NCBI GenBank assembly: GCA_031423995.1
Contig: JANPGO010000011.1
Span: 1-50,908, forward strand
DNA: 50,908 nt
Origin: Candidatus Altimarinota bacterium
GTDB taxonomy: Bacteria; Patescibacteriota; Gracilibacteria; BD1-5; UBA2023
Reading direction: 5' to 3'
The stretch's first letter is position 1, and each line of letters starts with the position of its first letter. This document shows, one piece after another, positions 1,036 to 50,908 of the stretch. The notes under the pieces were generated by a model, which was not told where the DNA came from, did not search any database, and saw only the letters and a list, made by a program, of their open reading frames with translations. Position numbers and translations under genes: made by a program.

Positions 1036-1063
1036 GTGTTTGAATTTGAATAATGTCAGTGTT

Positions 1064-1130
1064 CCGTCATTCTGAACGGAGTGAAGAATCCAGTCGAGAA
1101 AATGGATTCTGGCATTCGCCAGAATGATAA
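1064..1130. repeat. Short copy of the CCGTCATTCTGAACGGAGTGAAGAATCC palindromic repeat family
   Basis: Its 5' arm is identical to 12449-12477. An internal inverted TCATTCTG...CAGAATGA pair is present. It lies in the intergenic space after the PLD gene. Confidence 0.5.
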
Positions 1131-6575: not shown

Positions 6576-6810
6576 AGTATGGATGAATGTTAGAATGTTA
6601 GAGTGTTTGAATCTTAGAGTGGGAAAAGTTGGATGAGTATTGTATGAGCTTCAGATAGGGCATTGTTCTATTCAAAGATACAAAACTTCCAAACTTCCAA
6701 GACTCTACTCGAGCATATTGAAAAACTGGAAAATGCAACCATTTTGCACGAGAAATGTTGCGATCCTTGGCTTTGTCTCTATACTGCAGTCAGTATTTCT
6801 CATGTAGCCT

Positions 6811-12427: not shown

Positions 12428-12448
12428 ATTCAAGAGATGTCGAGTGAT

Positions 12449-12542
12449 CCGTCATTCTGAACGGAGTGAAGAATCCATTTGTCTGATTCACGGGATCCTT
12501 ACCCACAAGGGGTATACTGACTATCGCAAGCTCAGGATGACG
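12449..12542. repeat. 94-nt TIR element (CCGTCATTCTGA...TCAGGATGACG)
   Basis: Near-perfect terminal inverted repeats. The 5' arm is identical to the copy at 1064. Confidence 0.55.
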
Positions 12543-17970: not shown

Positions 17971-19707
17971 ATGTCTACCAACACCCACTTCGCAATCCGT
18001 ATCGCCTGACCTGCTGGACTCGGGATGCACTCCATCATGGATATTATCGCGAATGCATTCGCCTCGCTCGGTCAGCAGATCATCACGGACTCAGAATATC
18101 AGTCGATTATCAAGTGAGGATTGAATTATTATGATGTCCATGTCTGCAGCGAAGCCCCCTATATTACCAAGGCAGTCGATATCCTCATCTCGCTCAATGA
18201 GAAAAATATTACCCCGAATCTCGAGAGCCTCAGGAAGTGAGGATTCCTCATCGCGAACCAGAAATGGATCGAGAAAGTAGAAGTACATTTTCCAGATCTC
18301 AGAAGTGACTATATCGTCATCGATCCGCTCATCGAGGATAAGTATGAGAATACCTACCTGCTCGGGATCCTCGCAGGGTATCTCGGTCTGGATACGACGG
18401 TTTTCGAACCTGCTGTTACCAGAGCTTTTGCGAAGAAAGGTGAGGAAGTGGTTGCGAAAAATATCTGAATTCTGAGAGAGTATGCATGAATTGGCTCCCG
18501 TCATTCCCACGCTTTGCTCGGGACAGGCTCTGAGCTTGCGAAGGATCCAGAGTACCAGAAACCTGGATTCTTCCTATCGTCAGAATGACGGACACCACTC
18601 CAGATCACCTATGGAAATAAGGCGCTCGCCTATGGAGCAATCGCCTCAGAGCTCGAGTTCTTCGCAGCTTATCCGATGACACCTGCCTCGACCGTTCTCT
18701 CCGAGATCGTGAATTCGAAGAAAGTTACCTACCTCCAAGCGGAAGATGAGATTGCTGTTATGAATACTGCACTTGGGGCATCATTCACGGGAAAGCGTTC
18801 TATGGTAGCAACATCTGGCGGAGGATTCGCACTCATGACGGAGGCACTCTCATTCGCAGCACAGGCAGAGTTCCCGATCGTCGCGATCCTCTCACAGCGT
18901 GCAGGACCATCGACAGGAACGCCAACCTATCATGAACAATCAGAGATCAGCTATGCACTCGTTCCGACATTTGGCGGGGGAGATCATGTTGTCCTGATCC
19001 CTTCGACGATGGAAGAAGCGTACTTCATGGGAGGGCAAGCGCTCAATATCGCTCAGAAATATCAGACGACCGTCATCATCCTCACGGATAAGCAGTTCTC
19101 AGAAGGGAAGGTCACCATCACAGAACTGAAACCTGCACCTGTTGACCGAGGAAAGCTCATCACTGATCCTGGAGATGGATTCAAGCGCTATGAGCTCACT
19201 GATGATGGCATATCTCCGTATGTCCGTGTCGGAACTCCGAATGGTGACTTCATCGCGACGAGCTATGAACACGATGAATATGGAGCGACGAGTGAAGAGA
19301 TGGAGATGAAGGTTGCCATGACTGAGAAACGCGCTCGCAAGCTTCAGGATTTCTATGCGAAAGAGAGAATTATGGGATACCGAGTCGTGAATCCGACCGC
19401 AAAGAAGATGATCTTCACATTCTCTCTCACATCCTACACGGCAGAGGCATGGGTACGAGAAAATCCTGAATGGGGAGTCATCATCATCACGTGTCTCAAG
19501 CCACTCGATGTTCGTCTCCGTGAGGTGATCATCGGACTGGATCGGGTTGTCTTCGTCGAGTCGAACTATTCGGGTCAACTCGAGGACTATGTCACGAAGG
19601 AATTCGGACTGAGGTTCATAGATTGACTCGAGATCAGTCATATCAGAAAGTATGATCTGATGCCGTTTTTCTATGAAGATTTTGATATTTTAATCACTGA
19701 GGACTAA
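17971..19707 (+). CDS. korA: 2-oxoacid:ferredoxin oxidoreductase, fused gamma-alpha subunit
   Basis: The N-terminal gamma-type domain joins the alpha domain (GNKALAYGAIASELEFFAAYPMTPAS, ORF 18676..19626) in frame 1. Ends at TAA 19705. Confidence 0.85.
18498..18591. repeat. TIR element (CCGTCATTCC...AGAATGACGG) retained in frame in the korA interdomain linker
   Basis: Same termini and size class as 12449..12542 and 12744..12847. Translated as ...SRHSHALLGTGSELAKDPEYQKPGFFLSSEGR... with no stop codon. Confidence 0.6.
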
Positions 19708-19710
19708 AAA

Positions 19711-19881
19711 ATGGTTATAATTGAACTTATAGTGTCTGCAGTTTGAGTAATGGTAGAATTGCTTCCGAACAAGGTAAAAAATCATCCTTACTTCAACACG
19801 ATAGCGATTCTTATTTTAATTCTAATTATTTTGTTGATAGTTACAGAAATCTTCTTGGTATTTATTTGACCGGTAGACTAG
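19711..19881 (+). CDS. Possible small membrane protein between korA and korB (56 aa)
   Basis: ATG-to-TAG frame, A+T-rich, with a hydrophobic core ILILILIILLIV. Confidence 0.25.
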
Positions 19882-19906
19882 CCATAATTCTTTTCTAAAA
19901 ACTCCT

Positions 19907-20515
19907 ATGCGCTCTTGACTCACAAACATCCAATGGTGTCCCGGTTGTGGGGACTTCCTCATCATCATGGCGATCAAAAATGCCTTCAAAGAACTGGGTA
20001 TCCCATCTCATAAACGGGTGGTAGTATCCTGAGTAGGGTGCTCTGGGAAATCATCTCAGTATATCGATGGATATGCAGCGGAGACACTCCATGGTAGAGC
20101 TGTTCCATTCGCCACCTGAGTGAAGATGGCTGATCCAGAGCTCACCGTCGTCGTTGTTGGAGGTGATGGTGATGGCTATGGGATCGGGATGGGACACTTC
20201 ATCCATGCCTGTCGTCGCGATCTCGATATCACGTATATCGTCTTCAATAATGAGAACTACGCTCTCACTACGGGGCAATCAAGTCCGACGACTCCGATAG
20301 GCGCCGTTACCAAGACGGCTCCAGAAGGGAATCTCATCCGACCACTGGATCCTATCGCTCTCGCAGAACATGCTGGATGTTCATTTTCGAGGAAGGCTCA
20401 CTCGAAAAACTTTGCTGAAATGAAGGAGATTATCAAGGCTGCAATCCAACATAAAGGATTCGCACATATTGATGTTGAGCAAGATTGTCCATCATTTAGA
20501 CGTTGGGCTATATAG
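19907..20515 (+). CDS. korB: 2-oxoacid:ferredoxin oxidoreductase beta (TPP-binding) subunit; C-terminus appears short
   Basis: WCPGCGDF, GVGCSG, HGRAVPFATG and GGDGDGYGIG motifs. Ends at TAG only a few codons after DCPSF, exactly at the left inverted repeat. Confidence 0.8.
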
Positions 20516-20518
20516 GTT

Positions 20519-20993
20519 AATGTACAATTAACAATGTACAATTAATAATTTCGAAAATATGAAAGAAAATATCTTAAAAGATAAAACTTTTATTTTTGCC
20601 TTAGAAGGAGTTAAGTTTTCACAATTTCTCATATCAGAAAAGAAAGAATTTGTGATTTCTAAACAATTCCTCAGGAGTGGGAATGCTATCTGAGCTCTTG
20701 TTCGGGAGGCTGAATATGCACAAAGTCTCCAGATTTTATATCAAAGTTGAGTATTGCTCTCGAAGAAGCCAATGAAACTGAATACTGGATTGAACTACTA
20801 AATGCTGGAAAATATTTACAAAAAGACGAGTATGAACGACTCCTTTCGTGAAACAAGGAACTCTTAAAATTGCTTATTTCCAGCATTAAAACAGCAAAAG
20901 AAAATCAATAATATTATTGATCATTGATTACAGTATATTAGTTACCTATTGTCCATTGATTGTAAATTATTAATTATTCATTGTACATTGTTA
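20519..20993. mobile_element. Inverted-repeat-flanked A+T-rich cassette
   Basis: TAACAATGTACAATTAATAAT (20529-20549) against its reverse complement at 20973-20993 matches at 20 of 21 positions. AATGTACAATTA is duplicated at the left end. Confidence 0.4.
20559..20911 (+). pseudogene. Four-helix-bundle protein gene (23S rRNA intervening-sequence / Avd-like family) with a 1-nt frameshift
   Basis: The N-terminal frame gives ...QFLRSGNAIGALVREAEYAQS. The C-terminal frame gives PDFISKLSIALEEANETEYWIELL...KTAKENQ*. The frames differ by one nucleotide near 20725-20732. The track antisense ORF 20686..20886 confirms the sequence is contiguous there. Confidence 0.6.
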
Positions 20994-21512
20994 CTCCTCC
21001 TCCCCACCGACACATGCTATGGTCTTGCCTGAGGATTCACTGAGCAGGATTATCTCGAAATCTATCGTCTCAAGTGACGAGACTTCACTAAGCAACTGGC
21101 TCTTCTCGTAGAGGATTTTGATGATATGAAGAACTATATCGAAATCTCAGAAGAACAGATAGAATTCTTGAAGAATTATCCATATCCATGGAGCTTCCTC
21201 GGGAAGAGGAATGATAAATTTCAACTCCCAGCGTGGATGAATGTTGAACAATATCAGATGCTTTCTCTGAGAGTTGCAGGGGTCTGCCTTCCAACACTCA
21301 AAGATTCTAACCTTCCAACACTCCATTTTCCACTCTACCTCACTTCAGCGAATCTCGCATGAATGCCAGAATCAAAAACTCTCGCCGAAGCGAGAGGGAT
21401 TTTTCCAGAAGTTGAGTGAATCGATGGAGGTATCTGTGATCGTCCATCTTCAGATATTTTCTCGATAGGGAAAGATGGGGAATTGCAGTATATGAGGAGG
21501 AATTATAACTAG
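20949..21512 (+). CDS. tsaC: L-threonylcarbamoyladenylate synthase (YrdC/Sua5 family); N-terminus atypical, start uncertain
   Basis: PTDTCYGLAG, YPYPWSFL, LYLTSANLAG, GIDGG and PSSD motifs. There is no in-frame ATG upstream of PTDT, so the proposed TTG 20949 lies just upstream of the right inverted repeat and the N-terminus reads through it. Confidence 0.7.
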
Positions 21513-21943
21513 AGCTCTATGCAGCTAGAGCAAGTAGCCTTCTTTGATGATTTCATGTGAGGATAGAAATGGCAGAACTTACATCGGAATTTCAAGAATA
21601 AATATACTCACTAACCATCGTATCTAAATGCTTCCCAGAACTTGAAAAATTTCTGTTGAAAACTGGATTCTCATTGCGTTTCTTAGTTGCCAGAATTACT
21701 AGTATACAGGCTTTTAATTGAATATAATCTCAGCGAATTCTTGAAGGACTATTAAAGAAAAATCATAACGATTCCACACAGTCTATATATTTTTGGCTAA
21801 AAAAGTTTGTCTTATCTATCCCAAGACTCAAAAGGTGTATGCATAAAGCTAGATCCGCTCGTCTTCGTGTCTCTGAGCTTACCTGTACTCATTGAGCCAA
21901 ACATTCTGCATAAATTGCAATATCACAACCAGATTCTCAAGTA

Positions 21944-24089: not shown

Positions 24090-25679
24090 CTAGAAAACTT
24101 CGTCGACGTTGAGAGTTCCTATACCAGCATCGAGACGACATTCGACTGTCCAGTCTCATCCGAAAAGTTTCGTGAGTCATTCACAGATAAGATTGCGTAC
24201 TTTTGGCGTATCGACTCGTCCATGATTCCAAGACTTTGAAAAAATGAGTGTCAGTTTCAGTCCATCTGTTTGGAATCGCGCCGTCTTCAGGTCTGTCATG
24301 AGGGGCAGATTGGTCTCACGAATGTGGTTGATTAAGGCAGGAAAAGAGAATGGTTGGGTAGTGGGGTGGTTGGGTAGTGGGGTGGAGGTAGAAGGAGTTT
24401 CGAGTTTTTGTCATTCTGAACTTATTTCAGAATCCAGTTTCTTTGAATCCTTCTGTACTTTTCATGAACCCATTTCCGTACTTTTGTAACCAAAAGTATC
24501 AAAAGTTTCGGGGGGCAAAAAACTCGCTCCTCCTCGCTCTGCTCATCGATTCTCAGTATTCGTCTTCGCTCAAACAGTTTCGCCCCCCGAACCCCCATAA
24601 GATTGTTTATCATCATCTTTCTTTGAGTTTTGCGATACTTTCGTATTTTCTGGTACAGCAATATTATTTTTATTTCCTCGCTTCACGATCTTCAGAAAGG
24701 TTATCTCAATGAGCATCATCCCATCAGGAATGGTACGGATCTTCGAGTGACCTTCCATGATGAACGTGAAGATGGAATGATACTCTCAGAAACGAGGATC
24801 ATCGATGTATTCGAACAGGAGGTCACGTAGACGATAGAGTATCTGCTCGAAAAGTCCACGAGCATCGATATGTCCACTTCGGAGCGTATCGAGGATTTTG
24901 AGAATTTTTGGTACGTCTTCGAGTCGAAATGCCTCAATAATAGTGTCCACCAGTGCATCATCGACGAGTGCGAGTGTATAGCGAACATGGTCTGATCGGA
25001 CTTCGCGATCGATGATATTCTGCTCGAGGAGCGTGAGCGCATCTCGGAGTCATCCTCGAGCAGCTTTCGCGATGATTCTCAATGCTTCGTCTTCTACAGT
25101 GATTCCCTCAGTTTGGGCAATATACTGCAGTCGAGCAATGATATCTGTTTCAGTGATCTTTCGGAAGTCGAATCTGAGCGATCTCGATCGTATTGTCTCG
25201 GGAACTTTCTCGATCTCCGTGGTGGCGAGGATGAACTTCACATGACTTGGTGGTTCTTCGAGGATCTTCAGGAGGGCATTGAAGGCTCCAGTCGAGAGCA
25301 TATGGACTTCATCGATGATATAGACTTTGTAGGTTCATTGATTGGGTTCGAATCGCGCCTTCTCGATGAGTTCACGGACGTTCTCGACGCCATTGTTCGA
25401 GGCCCCATCGATCTCGATACAGTCGAGCATCATCTCCTGATCGAAGGCGATACAGTTCGTACACTGATGGCAGGGATTTCCATTTTGGAGGTTCATACAA
25501 TTCACTCCCTCTGCGAGGATGCGAGCACTCGTCGTTTTTCCGGTTCCGCGTGAACCATGGAGGAGATAGGCATGTCCGACACGTCCGGTTTTGAGGCTAT
25601 TTCTGAGAATCGTTGTGATGTAGTCTTGCCCGATGACAGAGTCCCAGTCATGAGGTCGGTAGGTCGTATAGAGTGACAC
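24090..25679 (-). CDS. dnaX: DNA polymerase III subunit gamma/tau
   Basis: [21 protein letters not shown], a Cys cluster, IIDEVHMLS and SRSLRF motifs. The frame was followed through TGAs to TAG 24090 (529 aa). Confidence 0.85.
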
Positions 25680-26725: not shown

Positions 26726-26883
26726 AGAATTGTGATACTATCATTAGCCTATCATAACTCTGTTTTTTTTGCAAAAAATGATGAATTTTGTATATTGGAA
26801 GGAATCTTAGAGTGTTGGATTCGTAAGAGTCTTTATTATGCAGTCGAACATTCTAACACTCTCATATTCTAACATTCTCAATA

Positions 26884-47141: not shown

Positions 47142-47312
47142 ATGTTTGCGAGTAAGAATTTGGTAGTATAAGGTAAAGATTTCAGAGTAAATGATGTAGC
47201 CGTCATATAATATTAAACATTAAATATTATATCATGCAATATGAAGTCCGTGACAAAATCTGAGAAATAGTCTAGTATAACCAGAGCAACCAGTATACCA
47301 ATATAAAAATTC

Positions 47313-50300
47313 ATGCGTTTTCTCGATAAATATACACAATCATTCGTACAGCCACGTCCGTGGAGCACTGCTTGGATCGCACTCCAATGGTGAAATCTTC
47401 TTTTCTGGAAGAAGCTCACGGCAATTCTTACTCTTTTTTGTCTTCTTGCATCGTATTTTCCGATTCAAGCATATTTCTCTCGATGACTCGAGTACCTTCC
47501 CTATGCAGATGCCCTCTACGAGAAGAAGATTGTCGATGTTCCATACACAAGGAACGATATGCTCGACTATGTGAGCCAAGATGAAGCACTTCGCATAGCG
47601 ATCAATATTGGCTGATGACTGGATTTTGACTGCCATGGCTCTCGTCACCTCTCACCGAATACAGAGAATATCTACGATTGTGCCTATGCTGGATATGCAG
47701 AGAAGAAGGGAATTATTTCAGCATCCTATACACCAACTGATTATACGAGTCGTATCGCTGCAGTTCGTTCACTCGTCGTCGCATCATGACTTCAGCAATC
47801 ATCACATGGAATTCCCTATGTTGATGTCCAAAGTGAGACTGGGTATATTGCGCGTGCCTATGATGTCGGCTGTCTCCCGAGTTCGAATTATTTCTATCCG
47901 GATACCTATATCTCTCGTGGTGAGATGCTCAAGCTCTCTGACTGTATCAATACGGCGATTGCTTCATCCGTCTCCATGACGATCCCGAAGAGTCATGTGA
48001 TTGCTTCATCCTCGAATCCAATACTCGTACAAAATCAGCCACCTCTCCCTGTGGTATCTATTTCTGTTCTTTCGGGAGAGAATTCAGTATCAGATCCTCA
48101 AAACGTTGTTCCAGTTCCTCCTCATTCAAATACTGGTATAATTCAAACAGGATCAACTCTAGAATCTGGAGCACTTGCTCTTCAGGGTCAAACAATCGTG
48201 ACACGGGAAGTTATTCGTGAAAAAATCGTGGAAGCAACAGGATCGAATATCATCCTTCCACAGGCATCAAATACTCTTCTCGGCTATGACAGCAATGGTA
48301 CGCTCATCACGGTCGGTATTGGATCAGGAGTAGAAATCATCGGAGGGAAAATACAGGCACATCCACTCGTCATCAATACTTCCGAGACATTCAGTGCAGC
48401 TCCGAGTACTCCACCACAGATGAATACTGTAGTTCCTCCATCCAATCTCCTCTACCCATCAACACCACTTCTTCAGTTCCAGGGAATTCCTGGTGGAGGA
48501 GGTTCGAGCTCTATCACTTCTGTCTTCGGTAGAAATGGAATCGTTACCGCAACAGCAGGGGACTATACAACCGATCTTGTCACTGAGGGATCACGTCTCT
48601 ACTTCACGGACCTGAGAGCACAGAATGCACTTTCCGGAAGTATCCTGGCTCTGAACACTGCTATCACGACACTTTCTGGGGCGATCGGAGTGGCTTCATA
48701 TTCAGGATTTCTCTCACTCACCTCTGATGTTTCGAACCTCTCAGGAACGGTGATGAGCCTTGGGAATTCTCTCATAACTTTTTCTGGTGCATTCGGAAAC
48801 TTCGGAAGTACTCTCACAGTTCTCTCGGGTACACTCAATATCCTCAGCGCGGATGTTGGAAGCCTTTCGGGCATACTGAGTAACACCAATTCTGGACTCG
48901 TTTCTCTGGGGAATCTCATGAATACACTTTCCGGAACTCTTGCAACGCGTATAGGACTCTCGGATCTCTCTGCAACAGGAGGAATCACGTATAATGTATT
49001 AAGTTGACTCTTTGGCTGGAATGGTACTACCTCGAATATTGCCGAGTGATTAAATCTTTACTATACTCAGGGACGATTTGATAGTGCTTTCTCAGCGAAA
49101 TCAACGAGCAATCTCACAGAAGGATCCAATCTCTACTTCACTGACCTCAGAGCTCAGAATGCACTTTCTGGATCAATCGGAAGTCTGACAAATAATTTTA
49201 CGACACTTTCTGGAGTGGTTGCGACCATAGGAAGTACACTCGATACCGTTTCTGGAAGTATTCTCAATTTTTCTTGATCGCTTTCCGTTCTTGCTTCACA
49301 AGTTGCGTCTCTCTCTGGAAGTATCAGTTCAGTTTCTGGAAGTCTCGATCTCCTCTCGAATACGGTAACGACTCTTTCAGGGGCAGTATGAGTCATAAAT
49401 AGCGGGCTTATCGCAGCGAATGGAAATATTTCTACACTCTTTTCTGGTCTTTCGAGTGCAACAGGAACTCTTGCAACCATTGCAGGAAATGTTGCGACAC
49501 TTTCTGGAGTTCTCTCGGCACAAAGCGCAAGTATCACTGCCCTCAACTCAGATATTGGAGTCTTAAGTGGCAGCATAGCAACACTTTCGGGAATGGTGAT
49601 AGGAATCAATGCTACTCTCGCAACTCTCTCGGGCACTCTCGCAACAACGAATACAAATCTCTCTGGTCTTTCAAGTACAGTCAGTATACTTTCTGGAACT
49701 GTTACTGCGCAAGGCAATACTCTTATCAATCTCGGATTAAATCTTGCTACCGCAACAGGAACAATAAATGTCCTTTCTGGAACTGTTTCCACTCTTTCAA
49801 CTGATCTCAATACACTTTCGGGTTCAGTAAATGCTCTTTCAGGACTGACTTCCAGTATTGCTTCGAATCTCAACACAACGAATTCCAACCTCGCAACAGC
49901 AACAGGAAATATCCTCTCTCTCCAGAACAACCTCGCGACAACAACGGGATCATTAAATACGGTTATTGTGAACCTCGCAACCGCAACAGGAAATATCGCT
50001 ACATTTTCTGGTTCTCTTGGTATCCTTTCTGGCAATCTTGCAACAACGAACTCCACTCTCAATACTCTCTCAGGTGTTATCGCAGGAAAGATTGGACTTG
50101 CTGACCTCTCAGCAATTGGGCCTATTGCCTATAATAATCTCACAGGGAATTTCTCATTCACTTCTGGATCTGATGGTCAGGTTCTGATGATGTCAGGTAG
50201 CCAATTTGTCTGGAAAAATCCAACAACAGTCGGTTCATCAGTCACGAGTATATTTGGTCGAACAGGTGATATTCTCGGGCAAATAGGGGATTATACAACG

Positions 50301-50908
50301 GCACTTGTGACAGAATCAGGATCCAATCTCTACTTCACAGATCTGAGAGCACAGAATGCTCTTTCTGGAAGTATCGGAAGTCTTTCTGGAACGCTCGCAT
50401 CACTTTCAGGTACGGTTAATACACTTTCTGGGATGATCAATCTCATGAATGCGAACTATACAACTCTCACATTCTCAGTTGCAGGAATTGGAAATAGTCA
50501 GATCGCACTTCAAAATAATTTTAATGCGCTTTCTTGATCTGTTGCTTCGCTCTCAGGAGTCGTTCTCTGAATCGGGAATAACCTTACAATTCTTACCGCT
50601 GACGTCAATACACTTTCATGAAGGGTGAATACGCTTTCTGGCGTAGTGGATAGTGCAAATACCAACATCGCTACTCTTTTCACCAACCTCGCAACCGCTA
50701 CTGGAAACATCGCTACACTCTCAGGAAATCTCAACACCACCAACACAAATCTTACCAATCTCACAACAAGCTTCAACACTCTTTCCGGAAATGTAGTCAC
50801 CCTCTCAGGAGTCGTTGCTACCAAGATCGGACTCACGAGCCTCTCAGTCAACTGACCACTCACATACAATAATGGTACCGGACTCTTCGGCATCAATATA
50901 GCCAACTC
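47313..50908 (+). CDS. Giant repetitive surface/fibre protein (3' end outside window)
   Basis: Frame 3 runs from ATG 47313 (47313-47927 verified codon by codon) through ORFs 47925..49007, 49593..50537 and 50625..50855. It has an N-terminal signal anchor, an SLH-like segment (FYPDTYISRGEMLKL) and then heptad xxLSGxx repeats. Confidence 0.75.

What the first reader, a model, noticed from the sequence alone, without database searches (positions are those of the whole stretch)
20516..21012. Inverted-repeat-flanked cassette with a frameshifted four-helix-bundle gene, sitting where KorB loses its C-terminus and TsaC its N-terminus
A strongly A+T-rich segment is bounded by 21-nt inverted repeats that match at 20 of 21 positions (20529-20549 and 20973-20993). 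AATGTACAATTA is tandemly duplicated at the left end. The segment carries a gene of the 23S-rRNA-intervening-sequence / DGR-Avd four-helix-bundle family, broken by a 1-nt frame change near 20725-20732. KorB stops at the left boundary a few codons after its DCPSF box, although related beta subunits normally continue further. TsaC begins with its conserved PTDT box just inside the right boundary. TsaC has no in-frame ATG, and its putative N-terminus (LLIIHCTLL) is encoded by the right repeat itself. This looks like an insertion with an associated deletion that remodelled two housekeeping genes. That would be an unreported context for this gene family, which is known from rRNA intervening sequences and DGRs. 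No reverse transcriptase is present in the window.
Basis: partly seen in the sequence, partly recalled or inferred. Interest (0 to 1): 0.7.

Follow-up and report, generated by a model that had tools for sequence, protein, structure and literature searches.

The report
IVS-type four-helix-bundle cassette in operon
A small A+T-rich gene cassette, built like the "intervening sequences" known from bacterial 23S rRNA genes, sits between two intact housekeeping genes of a Gracilibacteria genome that reads TGA as glycine; it did not truncate its neighbours, and its design recurs across many bacterial lineages.

Summary
The window comes from a code-25 (TGA=Gly) Candidatus Gracilibacteria genome.

**What is there**
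- Between korB (19907-20515) and tsaC (20988-21512) lies a 472-nt, 29% G+C cassette.
- It carries a PF05635/TIGR02436 four-helix-bundle ORF (20559-20911).
- The ORF is bracketed by inverted arrays of tandem heptamers: 4 units at 20519-20546 and 5 units at 20959-20993. The best inverted-repeat arms are 22 nt long and 95% complementary.
- The ORF has lost one base in codon 57 (20727-20728).

**KorB and TsaC are not truncated**
- All 120 best KorB relatives are 181-209 aa long.
- Relatives with an empty junction end KorB at the same "DCPSFRRWAx*" and start TsaC at "MxxxxPTDT".

**History of the cassette**
- The closest 4HB homologues (74-83% identity, intact, dN/dS 0.05-0.08) all sit at this same junction in related Gracilibacteria.
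- Their tree is congruent with the host tree, which indicates one old insertion. It was later lost or replaced in some lineages, for example by a HEPN gene.

**Wider family**
- In 62 of 67 PF05635 loci, both flanks have period 7 as the best tandem period.
- Cassettes lying within same-strand gene pairs are always co-directional with them (19 vs 0).
- This is the architecture of the Coxiella 23S IVS.

The RNA-level mechanism (arm pairing, RNase III cleavage) is inferred, not shown.

The parts
19907..20515 (+). korB, 2-oxoacid:ferredoxin oxidoreductase beta subunit. It is the short 202-aa form typical of Gracilibacteria, with three in-frame TGA=Gly codons. It is intact.
   Evidence: PF02775 E=6.6e-34. 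TIGR02177 covers positions 2-191 of 286. All 120 best relatives are 181-209 aa. The C-terminus is identical in empty-site relatives.
20519..20546 (+). Left heptamer array: AATGTAC AATTAAC AATGTAC AATTAAT.
   Evidence: (D4). Period 7 is the best tandem period. Equivalent arrays are present in L009, L013, L014, L098 and L100.
20529..20550 (+). Left arm of the best inverted repeat.
   Evidence: 22 nt, 95% complementary to 20972-20993 (I3). None of 100 shuffles gave a match. The arms pair in both the MFE and the centroid fold.
20559..20726 (+). Four-helix-bundle (PF05635/TIGR02436) ORF, codons 1-56. Includes a TGA=Gly codon at 20691-20693.
   Evidence: tblastn under code 25 gives 89% identity to the L009 orthologue. 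HMM hits. PDB 2RLD E=3.3e-37.
20727..20728 (+). Frameshift site: two bases remain of codon 57 (Arg, CGN in the orthologues), so one base has been deleted.
   Evidence: Alignment A1, column 257: AGTC-TCC in the window against AGTCGACC / AGTCGTCC in L009, L013 and L014. The tblastn match is split here.
20729..20911 (+). Four-helix-bundle ORF, codons 58-117 plus the TAA stop, in the -1 frame relative to the first part. Includes a TGA=Gly codon at 20849-20851.
   Evidence: tblastn gives 82% identity to L009. The repaired ORF matches the full length of PF05635 and TIGR02436.
20959..20993 (+). Right heptamer array, the reverse complement of the left units: ATTGTAA ATTATTA ATTATTC ATTGTAC ATTGTTA. 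More degenerate units extend upstream of it. It contains the right inverted-repeat arm (20972-20993).
   Evidence: I1-I3; about 4.9 units.
20988..21512 (+). tsaC (YrdC/Sua5-family, 174 aa). The probable TTG start and codon 2 (TTA) lie inside the terminal heptamer ATTGTTA. An alternative in-frame TTG lies at 20949.
   Evidence: PF01300 E=5.9e-17. The TTG aligns with the ATG of cassette-free relatives. All 7 cassette-bearing junctions have TTG at this position, and independent gene callers chose it in L013 and L014.
17971..19707 (+). korA (fused gamma/alpha subunit, 578 aa), first gene of the korA-korB-[cassette]-tsaC co-directional unit.
   Evidence: POR and POR_N domains. Synteny is conserved in all relatives.

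Best explanation
**What it is**

This is an IVS-type four-helix-bundle cassette: a ~117-codon PF05635/TIGR02436 ORF bracketed by inverted arrays of tandem heptamers. It sits as a co-directional wedge in the short korB-tsaC spacer of the korA-korB-tsaC unit of a code-25 Gracilibacterium.

**Shown**
- It is an insertion relative to outgroup relatives.
- It removed nothing from korB or tsaC.
- It was acquired once in the ancestor of a Gracilibacteria subclade and has been inherited at this locus since. It was later lost in one lineage and replaced by other cargo in two.
- Its protein has been kept under strong purifying selection while being translated with TGA=Gly.
- The window's copy carries a very recent 1-nt deletion, or an assembly error.
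- The same architecture is a general property of this gene family in unrelated bacteria, and it matches the Coxiella 23S rRNA IVS. That architecture is about 4-5 heptamers per arm, arms matching each other within a cassette but differing between cassettes, an A+T-rich cassette, and sense orientation inside transcription units.

**Inferred, how it works**
- The cassette has no demonstrable promoter of its own and is transcribed by read-through from korAB.
- In the transcript the two arrays pair into a 22-31-bp stem that closes the cassette.
- By analogy with 23S IVSs, that stem is an RNase III substrate. This would let the element reside in a transcription unit without destroying it.
- The stem brings the korB stop and the tsaC TTG start close together.
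- The encoded protein is homologous to pentameric 2RLD/2GSC and to DGR Avd. It plausibly binds the ~5-unit heptamer arrays or the processed RNA.
- How the cassette originally moved is unknown.
For: **Genetic code and taxon:**

**Family membership:**

**Repeats:**

**Empty sites with identical KorB end and TsaC start:**. All KorB relatives are short, including distant ones that have other downstream genes.

**Closest 4HB homologues all sit downstream of korB and are intact:** P0121, P0122, P0123, P0124 and P0125. tsaC follows wherever the contig extends far enough.

**Host and cassette trees are congruent:** cassette-bearing lineages are both basal and in the crown. Identities also track each other: KorB/TsaC/4HB are 98.5/86/83% for L009, 91.6/75/74% for L014 and 91.1/64/75% for L013.

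**Purifying selection:** dN/dS 0.05-0.08.

**Frameshift is a 1-nt deletion:**

**Family-wide architecture**
- The inverted-repeat score exceeds the maximum of 30 shuffles in about 58 of the 70 testable loci (66 unrelated plus 4 Gracilibacteria).
- Period 7 is the best tandem period on both flanks in 62 of 67 loci.
- Median 4.6 and 4.4 units per arm.
- Co-oriented with the upstream neighbour in 40 of 44 loci and with the downstream neighbour in 35 of 42. G+C is 0.33 against 0.42 in the flanks.
- Among cassettes inside same-strand gene pairs, 19 are co-directional and 0 antisense, p=3.8e-6.
- None of the 20 long loci tested lies in rRNA.

**Folding**
- The MFE and centroid folds close the window cassette with the inverted-repeat arms, z=-3.2.
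- Arm-arm closure is predicted in 46 of 53 loci.

**Coxiella IVS (PMC4990558):** 428 nt, a 28-bp terminal inverted-repeat stem cut by RNase III, GACAGAT heptamers x2-3 just upstream of the S23p ORF, and an ORF that is decaying.
Against: **RNA-level steps are untested**
- Among arm mismatches, G.U (47) is not enriched over A.C (57), p=0.38. The sequence data therefore do not favour sense-RNA pairing over DNA-level symmetric arrays.
- The fold control, with the right flank reversed, still gave many cross-pairs in this A+T-rich sequence: 32 of 53 loci.
- The TTG start of tsaC lies inside the right arm, so a stable stem would occlude it.
- RNase III was not looked for in this genome.

**Mobility is not shown**
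- There is no target-site duplication.
- There is no second copy in the 51-kb window.
- No close homologue was found at any other locus.

**Single gain is not proven**
- That scenario requires that the lineages which lost or replaced the cassette (L002, L007, L001) regained an ATG start.

**Frameshift:** it could be an assembly error. Reads were not available.
Confidence: 0.75

Rival explanations
1. One reading: an inverted-repeat-flanked element inserted together with a deletion that removed the KorB C-terminus and the TsaC N-terminus, remodelling two housekeeping genes.
For: KorB matches only positions ~16-206 of ~287-position KorB models, and TsaC starts at model position ~22 of TIGR00057. 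tsaC has no in-frame ATG.
Against: - Cassette-free relatives have the same 202-aa KorB, ending ...DCPSFRRWAx*.
- Their TsaC has the same 5-residue lead before PTDT.
- All 120 best KorB hits are 181-209 aa.
- Distant Gracilibacteria with other downstream genes also have a 200-aa KorB.
Confidence: 0.02
2. An active or recently active non-autonomous DNA transposon (MITE-like), whose terminal inverted repeats are recognised by a transposase supplied in trans. In this view the 4HB gene is passenger cargo.
For: - Terminal inverted repeats.
- A+T-rich relative to the host.
- Patchy presence and absence among close relatives: L014 is filled and L002 is empty at 98% KorB identity.
- The G.U versus A.C test gives no RNA-specific signal.
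Against: - No target-site duplication at the junctions.
- The ends are variable-copy heptamer arrays rather than fixed terminal repeats.
- There is only one copy in the window.
- Every close homologue examined is at the same junction, with a tree congruent with the host.
- The ORF is always present and under purifying selection, so it is not a passenger.
- The strict sense orientation inside operons, 19 vs 0, is not expected for a DNA transposon.
Confidence: 0.08
3. A domesticated resident operon gene. The 4HB protein serves the host at this locus, and the heptamer arrays are cis-regulatory sites that tune expression of the cassette and of tsaC, for example operators or translational control elements bound by the protein itself. 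No selfish or mobile behaviour remains.
For: - Long-term retention at one locus with dN/dS 0.05-0.08, and adaptation to code 25.
- The arrays abut the 4HB start codon and contain the tsaC start codon.
- About 5 units per arm matches a pentameric protein.
- There is no RNA-specific mismatch signal.
Against: - It was lost or replaced in three lineages without visible consequence.
- It is frameshifted here.
- The same cassette occurs next to unrelated genes in many phyla and inside 23S rRNA, so the function cannot be specific to korB/tsaC.

This rival differs from the best explanation mainly in emphasis.
Confidence: 0.13
4. A remnant of a diversity-generating retroelement: the 4HB gene is an Avd whose reverse transcriptase and template/variable repeats have been lost.
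For: PF05635 includes Avd-like proteins and is the commonest Pfam family near DGR reverse transcriptases (PMC10053308).
Against: - No RT was called within about 5 kb in any of nine related loci.
- No RT was found among 10 additional large window ORFs.
- No TR/VR-like repeat pair lies near the cassette.
- The protein's best solved relative is the stand-alone Bacteroides protein 2RLD, not Avd.
- The flanking heptamer arrays are an IVS feature, not a DGR feature.
Confidence: 0.02

Closest known systems
23S rRNA intervening sequence (IVS) elements that encode an S23p/PF05635 ORF (Coxiella burnetii, Leptospira, others)
   Same: - Similar size: about 470 nt here against 428-444 nt in Coxiella.
- A single sense-oriented ~117-aa PF05635 ORF.
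- Terminal inverted repeats predicted to close the element in a stem.
- Tandem heptamers immediately upstream of the ORF, with variable copy number.
- A tendency of the ORF to decay.

(PMC4990558.)
   Different: - It lies between two protein-coding genes, not in helix 45, 25 or 9 of 23S rRNA.
- The orthologous ORFs are under strong purifying selection, whereas Coxiella S23p is reported as probably untranslated.
- The right arm supplies the start codon of the downstream gene.
- RNase III excision is not demonstrated here.
Stand-alone 'four helix bundle protein' genes (TIGR02436; for example the Bacteroides thetaiotaomicron protein of PDB 2RLD)
   Same: - Same protein family: 83 bits against TIGR02436, and E=3.3e-37 to 2RLD.
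- 55-66% identity to hundreds of such genes.
- Those genes share the flanking inverted heptamer arrays and the sense orientation in operons.
   Different: - This copy is in a code-25 CPR genome and uses TGA=Gly at a conserved glycine.
- It is frameshifted.
- Filled, empty and replaced states of the same site are available among relatives.
DGR accessory variability determinant (Avd)
   Same: Homologous four-helix-bundle fold family (PMC10053308).
   Different: - No reverse transcriptase and no template/variable repeats (and the synteny calls).
- The flanks are heptamer arrays.
MITEs / small TIR-bounded non-autonomous transposons
   Same: Small, A+T-rich, bounded by inverted repeats, with a patchy distribution.
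   Different: - It carries a conserved, selected ORF.
- The ends are tandem heptamer arrays.
- There is no target-site duplication and there are no dispersed copies.
- Orientation is strictly co-directional with host transcription.

Membership tests
PF05635 / TIGR02436 four-helix-bundle (23S rRNA IVS protein) family | Profile HMM score above the curated cutoff over the full domain | tested here: met
   The repaired ORF scores 74.5 bits against PF05635 (cutoff 33.8), covering profile positions 3-105 of 106. It scores 83 bits against TIGR02436 (cutoff 24), covering positions 3-109 of 109.
PF05635 / TIGR02436 four-helix-bundle (23S rRNA IVS protein) family | Single-domain protein of about 115-125 aa with a relative of solved four-helix-bundle structure | tested here: met
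   117 aa after repair. Orthologues are 116-118 aa. PDB 2RLD matches at E=3.3e-37 over residues 1-116, and that entry has 5 chains. The fold itself was not modelled here.
PF05635 / TIGR02436 four-helix-bundle (23S rRNA IVS protein) family | Uninterrupted reading frame | tested here: not met
   A 1-nt deletion in codon 57 at 20727-20728. An assembly error cannot be excluded.
23S rRNA intervening-sequence (IVS) element | Located within a 23S rRNA gene (helix 9, 25 or 45) | tested here: not met
   It lies between korB and tsaC. There is no rRNA match in 19400-21700.
23S rRNA intervening-sequence (IVS) element | Terminal inverted repeats able to form a stem that closes the element | tested here: met
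   22-nt arms, 95% complementary. They pair in both the MFE and the centroid fold, z=-3.2.
23S rRNA intervening-sequence (IVS) element | Tandem heptamer repeats just upstream of a sense-oriented S23p ORF | tested here: met
   Four heptamers at 20519-20546, ending 12 nt before the ATG. Compare the Coxiella GACAGAT repeats (PMC4990558).
23S rRNA intervening-sequence (IVS) element | Excision from the transcript by RNase III at the stem | not testable with these tools
   [quoted passage not shown] The G.U versus A.C mismatch test gave no RNA-specific signal: 47 vs 57, p=0.38.
Diversity-generating retroelement (Avd component) | Adjacent reverse transcriptase gene | tested here: not met
   No RVT domain in the called genes of nine related loci, nor in 10 further large window ORFs. 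Not every window ORF was scanned.
Diversity-generating retroelement (Avd component) | Template repeat / variable repeat pair | tested here: not met
   No direct repeat of at least 35 nt involves the region.
MITE / TIR DNA transposon | Target-site duplication flanking the terminal inverted repeats | tested here: not met
   Comparison of filled and empty junctions shows no duplicated flank. The boundaries cannot be resolved to the nucleotide.
MITE / TIR DNA transposon | Multiple dispersed copies in a genome | tested here: inconclusive
   There is one copy in the 51-kb window, and all close homologues lie at the same locus. Whole genomes could not be scanned.
Canonical KorB (TIGR02177 / PRK11866) | C-terminal ~80-aa domain following the TPP-binding domain | tested here: not met
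   Model positions beyond ~206 of 287 are absent. They are also absent from all 120 closest relatives, with or without the cassette.

The most novel reading that the evidence does not exclude
PF05635 'four helix bundle' genes, together with their inverted ~5-unit heptamer arrays, form one phylum-spanning class of transcription-unit 'wedge' elements. The 23S rRNA IVSs would be only the first-noticed special case.

On this reading the elements insert, or are tolerated, only in sense orientation inside operons or rRNA. The arrays would be the cognate sites of the encoded pentameric protein and/or RNase III processing sites that make the insertion harmless.

The Gracilibacteria korB|tsaC site offers a natural series for dissecting this. 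It has filled, empty and replaced states, and a start codon donated by the element.
Probability: 0.3. Interest if true: 0.7.

Novelty: new variant of a known kind. Interest (0 to 1): 0.42.

Why it matters
For this genome the result is a correction. korB and tsaC are intact, the apparent truncations are lineage traits, and most apparent breaks disappear once TGA is read as glycine.

The broader point concerns the origin and function of 23S rRNA intervening sequences and their S23p ORF, which remain unclear more than 25 years after their discovery (PMC4990558). The evidence here shows that the IVS architecture also surrounds the stand-alone members of the family in many lineages. That architecture is inverted heptamer arrays around a PF05635 ORF in sense orientation within a transcription unit.

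A clade of Gracilibacteria preserves one such insertion alongside empty and replaced versions of the same site. This turns a vague idea, that the IVS may once have been mobile, into three testable questions:
- Does the pentameric protein bind its own heptamers?
- Does RNase III process the arm stem in mRNA?
- How is the downstream gene translated from a start codon donated by the element?

Tried and rejected
1. **Table-11 ORFs.** Reading the region with table 11 gave fragmented genes. This was rejected in favour of code 25.
2. **Other copies of the repeats in the window.** None were found.
3. **Rfam.** No family covers the cassette. The only hit was a chance snoRNA match at E=0.15.
4. **Promoter and terminator scans.** Counts were not above expectation: 8 promoter-like sites against 5.3 expected, and no terminator in the cassette.
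5. **PADLOC.** There were no defence-system hits for the 4HB protein or for the HEPN protein that replaces it in L007.
6. **DGR hypothesis.** No RT and no TR/VR.
7. **Programmed frameshift.** Rejected because three orthologues are in frame and there is no slippery motif at CAAAGTCTCC.
8. **Target-site duplication.** None is discernible.
9. **G.U versus A.C strand-asymmetry test for RNA pairing.** Negative or uninformative: 47 vs 57.
10. **Fold control with the right flank reversed.** A weak control, because the A+T-rich, partly palindromic units still pair.
11. **Literature searches.** Terms included PF05635, TIGR02436, heptameric repeats, STRR and the repeat sequences themselves. They returned only the rRNA-IVS and DGR literature. 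Absence from this library is not proof that the architecture is unpublished.
12. **Genome-collection scan with TsaC.** It returned only one locus, L001.
13. **Pfam.** They failed because DNA references are translated with table 11. The scan was repeated with pasted code-25 proteins for 10 ORFs, so only that one batch was scanned.
Full report
**1. Genetic code and gene models**

With table 11 the region breaks into short ORFs. When TGA is read as sense, the total length of ORFs of at least 100 aa rises from 15,753 to 60,492 aa. TGA falls at conserved glycines. One example is the 'AIGAL' glycine of the cassette protein, which is TGA in the window and L009 but GGT in L013 and L014. The best protein hits are all Candidatus Gracilibacteria. 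The window is therefore a code-25 genome.

Under code 25 the local genes are:
- korA, 17971-19707
- korB, 19907-20515 (202 aa)
- the cassette
- tsaC, 20988-21512 (174 aa)

**2. Checking the observation**

- The segment 20516-20987 is 29% G+C, against 49% for korB and 43% for tsaC.
- The 21-nt inverted repeat exists with one mismatch. As 22-nt arms it is 95% complementary, and no shuffle produced a match.
- The 'tandem duplication' is two 14-mers. It resolves into four heptamers, AATGTAC AATTAAC AATGTAC AATTAAT, at 20519-20546.
- The right end carries five reverse-complement heptamers at 20959-20993, the last being ATTGTTA.
- The repaired ORF is a full-length PF05635/TIGR02436 protein. It has a close solved relative, PDB 2RLD, at E=3.3e-37; that entry has five chains.
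- The frame break is a single-base loss in codon 57 at 20727-20728.
- The two in-frame TGAs are glycine codons, not lesions.

**3. The termini of KorB and TsaC**

Against canonical models, KorB lacks about 80 C-terminal residues and TsaC lacks about 20 N-terminal residues. This is not caused by the cassette, for these reasons:
- All 120 best KorB relatives are 181-209 aa.
- In three cassette-free relatives, korB is 202 aa and ends ...DVEQDCPSFRRWA(N/E/S)*. These are L002 (GCA_031539225.1), L003 (GCA_013268835.1) and L004-6.
- In those relatives tsaC follows after 6-11 nt and begins MIFLLPTDT, MLFILPTDT or MIQIIPTDT.
- The window's TTG-20988 gives (M)LLLLPTDT, which is the same length.
- More distant Gracilibacteria (KorB 78-82% identical) with unrelated downstream genes still have a 200-aa KorB.

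**4. History of the cassette**

*Location of the closest homologues.* The closest 4HB homologues in a 5.8-billion-protein collection are P0121 (83%), P0122 (77%), P0123 (75%), P0125 (75%) and P0124 (74%). All lie immediately downstream of korB in other Gracilibacteria. tsaC follows wherever the contig extends far enough. All are intact at 116-118 aa. The next-best homologues drop to 64% or below.

*Shared anatomy.* All cassette-bearing junctions share three features:
- a left array that starts right after the korB stop;
- a right array;
- a tsaC TTG start inside a terminal (C)ATTG(T/A)TA.

In L013 and L100 the korB stop has been lost, and KorB reads seven codons into the array. All five non-4HB junctions use ATG.

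*Tree evidence.* An NJ tree of KorB+TsaC places 4HB-bearing lineages both basally (L013, L098) and in the crown (L014, window+L009). The empty (L002), HEPN-containing (L007/8) and other-cargo (L001) junctions are nested among them. The 4HB tree is congruent with this host tree.

*Selection.* dN/dS of the 4HB ORF is 0.05-0.08 in every pair for which dS could be estimated, including window versus L009.

*Inference.* The most parsimonious reading is one ancient insertion, vertical inheritance of a functional gene, and later loss or replacement in three lineages. The disruption in the window is very recent, or it is a sequencing artefact.

The junction is evidently a hotspot for cargo turnover. 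So is the neighbouring korA|korB junction:
- The window has a 199-nt insert there.
- L013 has a 463-nt insert.
- L096 has a 128-aa ORF.
- The other relatives have 5-9 nt.

**5. The architecture is general**

A metagenome scan with the protein returned 80 loci at 55-66% identity from other lineages. The analysis of these loci gave the following:
- In about 58 of the 70 testable loci (66 unrelated plus 4 Gracilibacteria), the best inverted repeat between the 110 nt upstream and the 110 nt downstream of the ORF exceeds every shuffle. Scores were 13-34, against a control mean of about 7.
- Period 7 is the best tandem period on both flanks in 62 of 67 loci. The units match between the two arms of a cassette but differ between cassettes. 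AATTGAC is the commonest; others include AATTGAT, AACAATG and AAAAGTG.
- Arms have a median of 4.6 and 4.4 units, with a mode of 5.
- Cassettes are A+T-richer than their flanks, 0.33 against 0.42. They are co-oriented with the upstream gene in 40 of 44 loci and with the downstream gene in 35 of 42. They sit 10-60 nt after the upstream stop.
- Within same-strand gene pairs they are never antisense: 19 against 0, p=3.8e-6.
- None of the 20 long loci tested is inside an rRNA gene.

The Coxiella 23S IVS has the same design: 428 nt, a 28-bp terminal stem cleaved by RNase III, and GACAGAT heptamers x2-3 abutting the S23p start codon (PMC4990558). I found no paper in the held library that describes this architecture outside rRNA. 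That is not proof that none exists.

**6. Mechanism**

*Shown:* the anatomy, the conservation, the orientation bias and the purifying selection.

*Inferred:*
- Read-through transcription from korAB. No convincing promoter or terminator was found.
- Arm-arm pairing in the transcript. The MFE and centroid folds close the cassette at z=-3.2, and closure is predicted in 46 of 53 loci against 32 of 53 in a weak control.
- RNase III processing, by analogy with IVSs.

*Caveat:* the strand-asymmetry test found no G.U excess over A.C among arm mismatches (47 vs 57, p=0.38). DNA-level symmetric arrays remain equally compatible with the data. These could be binding sites for the pentameric protein, and about 5 units per arm is suggestive of that.

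*Unknown:* how the cassette first moved. There is no target-site duplication, no dispersed copies and no linked RT or transposase.

**7. Verdict**

The headline claim, that two housekeeping genes were remodelled, is wrong, and the 'unreported context' claim is overstated. What is present is a vertically inherited, recently damaged member of a widespread IVS-type cassette family.

The family-wide heptamer-array and sense-orientation pattern is the more interesting by-product. So is the filled/empty/replaced series at korB|tsaC.

Noticed in passing
whole window: The genome uses genetic code 25 (TGA=Gly). Reading TGA as sense quadruples total ORF content in ORFs of at least 100 aa. All gene models from standard-code callers in this window will be fragmented.
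   Followed up: yes
window 19708-19906: There is a second lineage-specific A+T-rich insert between korA and korB: 199 nt at 30% G+C. It carries a 56-codon ORF (19711-19881) with two hydrophobic segments. The closest relative, L009, and most others have only 5-9 nt at this position. L013 has a different 463-nt insert that includes a duplicated korB 5' end, and L096 has a 128-aa ORF. The korA|korB junction is therefore also a variable site.
   Followed up: partly
L007 1767-2786 and L008 901-1920; L001 ~480-1790: The same korB|tsaC junction holds a 339-aa HEPN_RiboL-PSP gene in the relative whose KorB is 91% identical. In GFS_6143 (L001) it holds an unrelated ~1.3-kb insert with two ORFs, one apparently carrying a signal peptide. 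This is a small cargo hotspot between core genes. The HEPN protein has no PADLOC hit.
   Followed up: partly
window 19907-20515 and all relatives: Gracilibacteria KorB is uniformly about 200 aa and lacks the C-terminal ~80-residue domain of canonical 2-oxoacid:ferredoxin oxidoreductase beta subunits. Whether that domain is dispensable or supplied elsewhere was not examined.
   Followed up: no
L013 3358-3987; L100 ~286-700: In two cassette-bearing relatives the korB stop codon has been lost. KorB reads seven extra codons (…NQGTNNN*) into the left heptamer array, including a TGA=Gly codon.
   Followed up: partly
window 6585-6621 and 26841-26877 (inverted, 37 nt, 84%); tsaC ~21284-21330: There is a dispersed short tandem-repeat motif, GAATGTTAGAATGTTAGAGTG... 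A related sequence appears in frame inside tsaC, encoding PTLKDSNLPTLHF. This is an ~8-aa insertion relative to the TsaC of L002, L013 and L003, but it is shared with L014 and L007.
   Followed up: no
window 1058-1092, 12443-12477 (97%), 24402-24436 (69%): A 35-nt dispersed repeat containing a hairpin, AGTGATCCGTCATTCTGAACGGAGTGAAGAATCCA. It may be a REP-like element, and some copies lie inside predicted ORFs.
   Followed up: no
window 47307-50906 (+), running off the end: A very large ORF of more than 1,200 aa, built of about 14-aa periodic repeats (direct-repeat families at 48.5-50.9 kb). It is likely a surface or fibre-like protein.
   Followed up: no
L049, L060, L067 ~2900-2976: In three unrelated metagenome loci, a tRNA gene lies about 50 nt downstream of the 4HB cassette on the opposite strand.
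   Followed up: no
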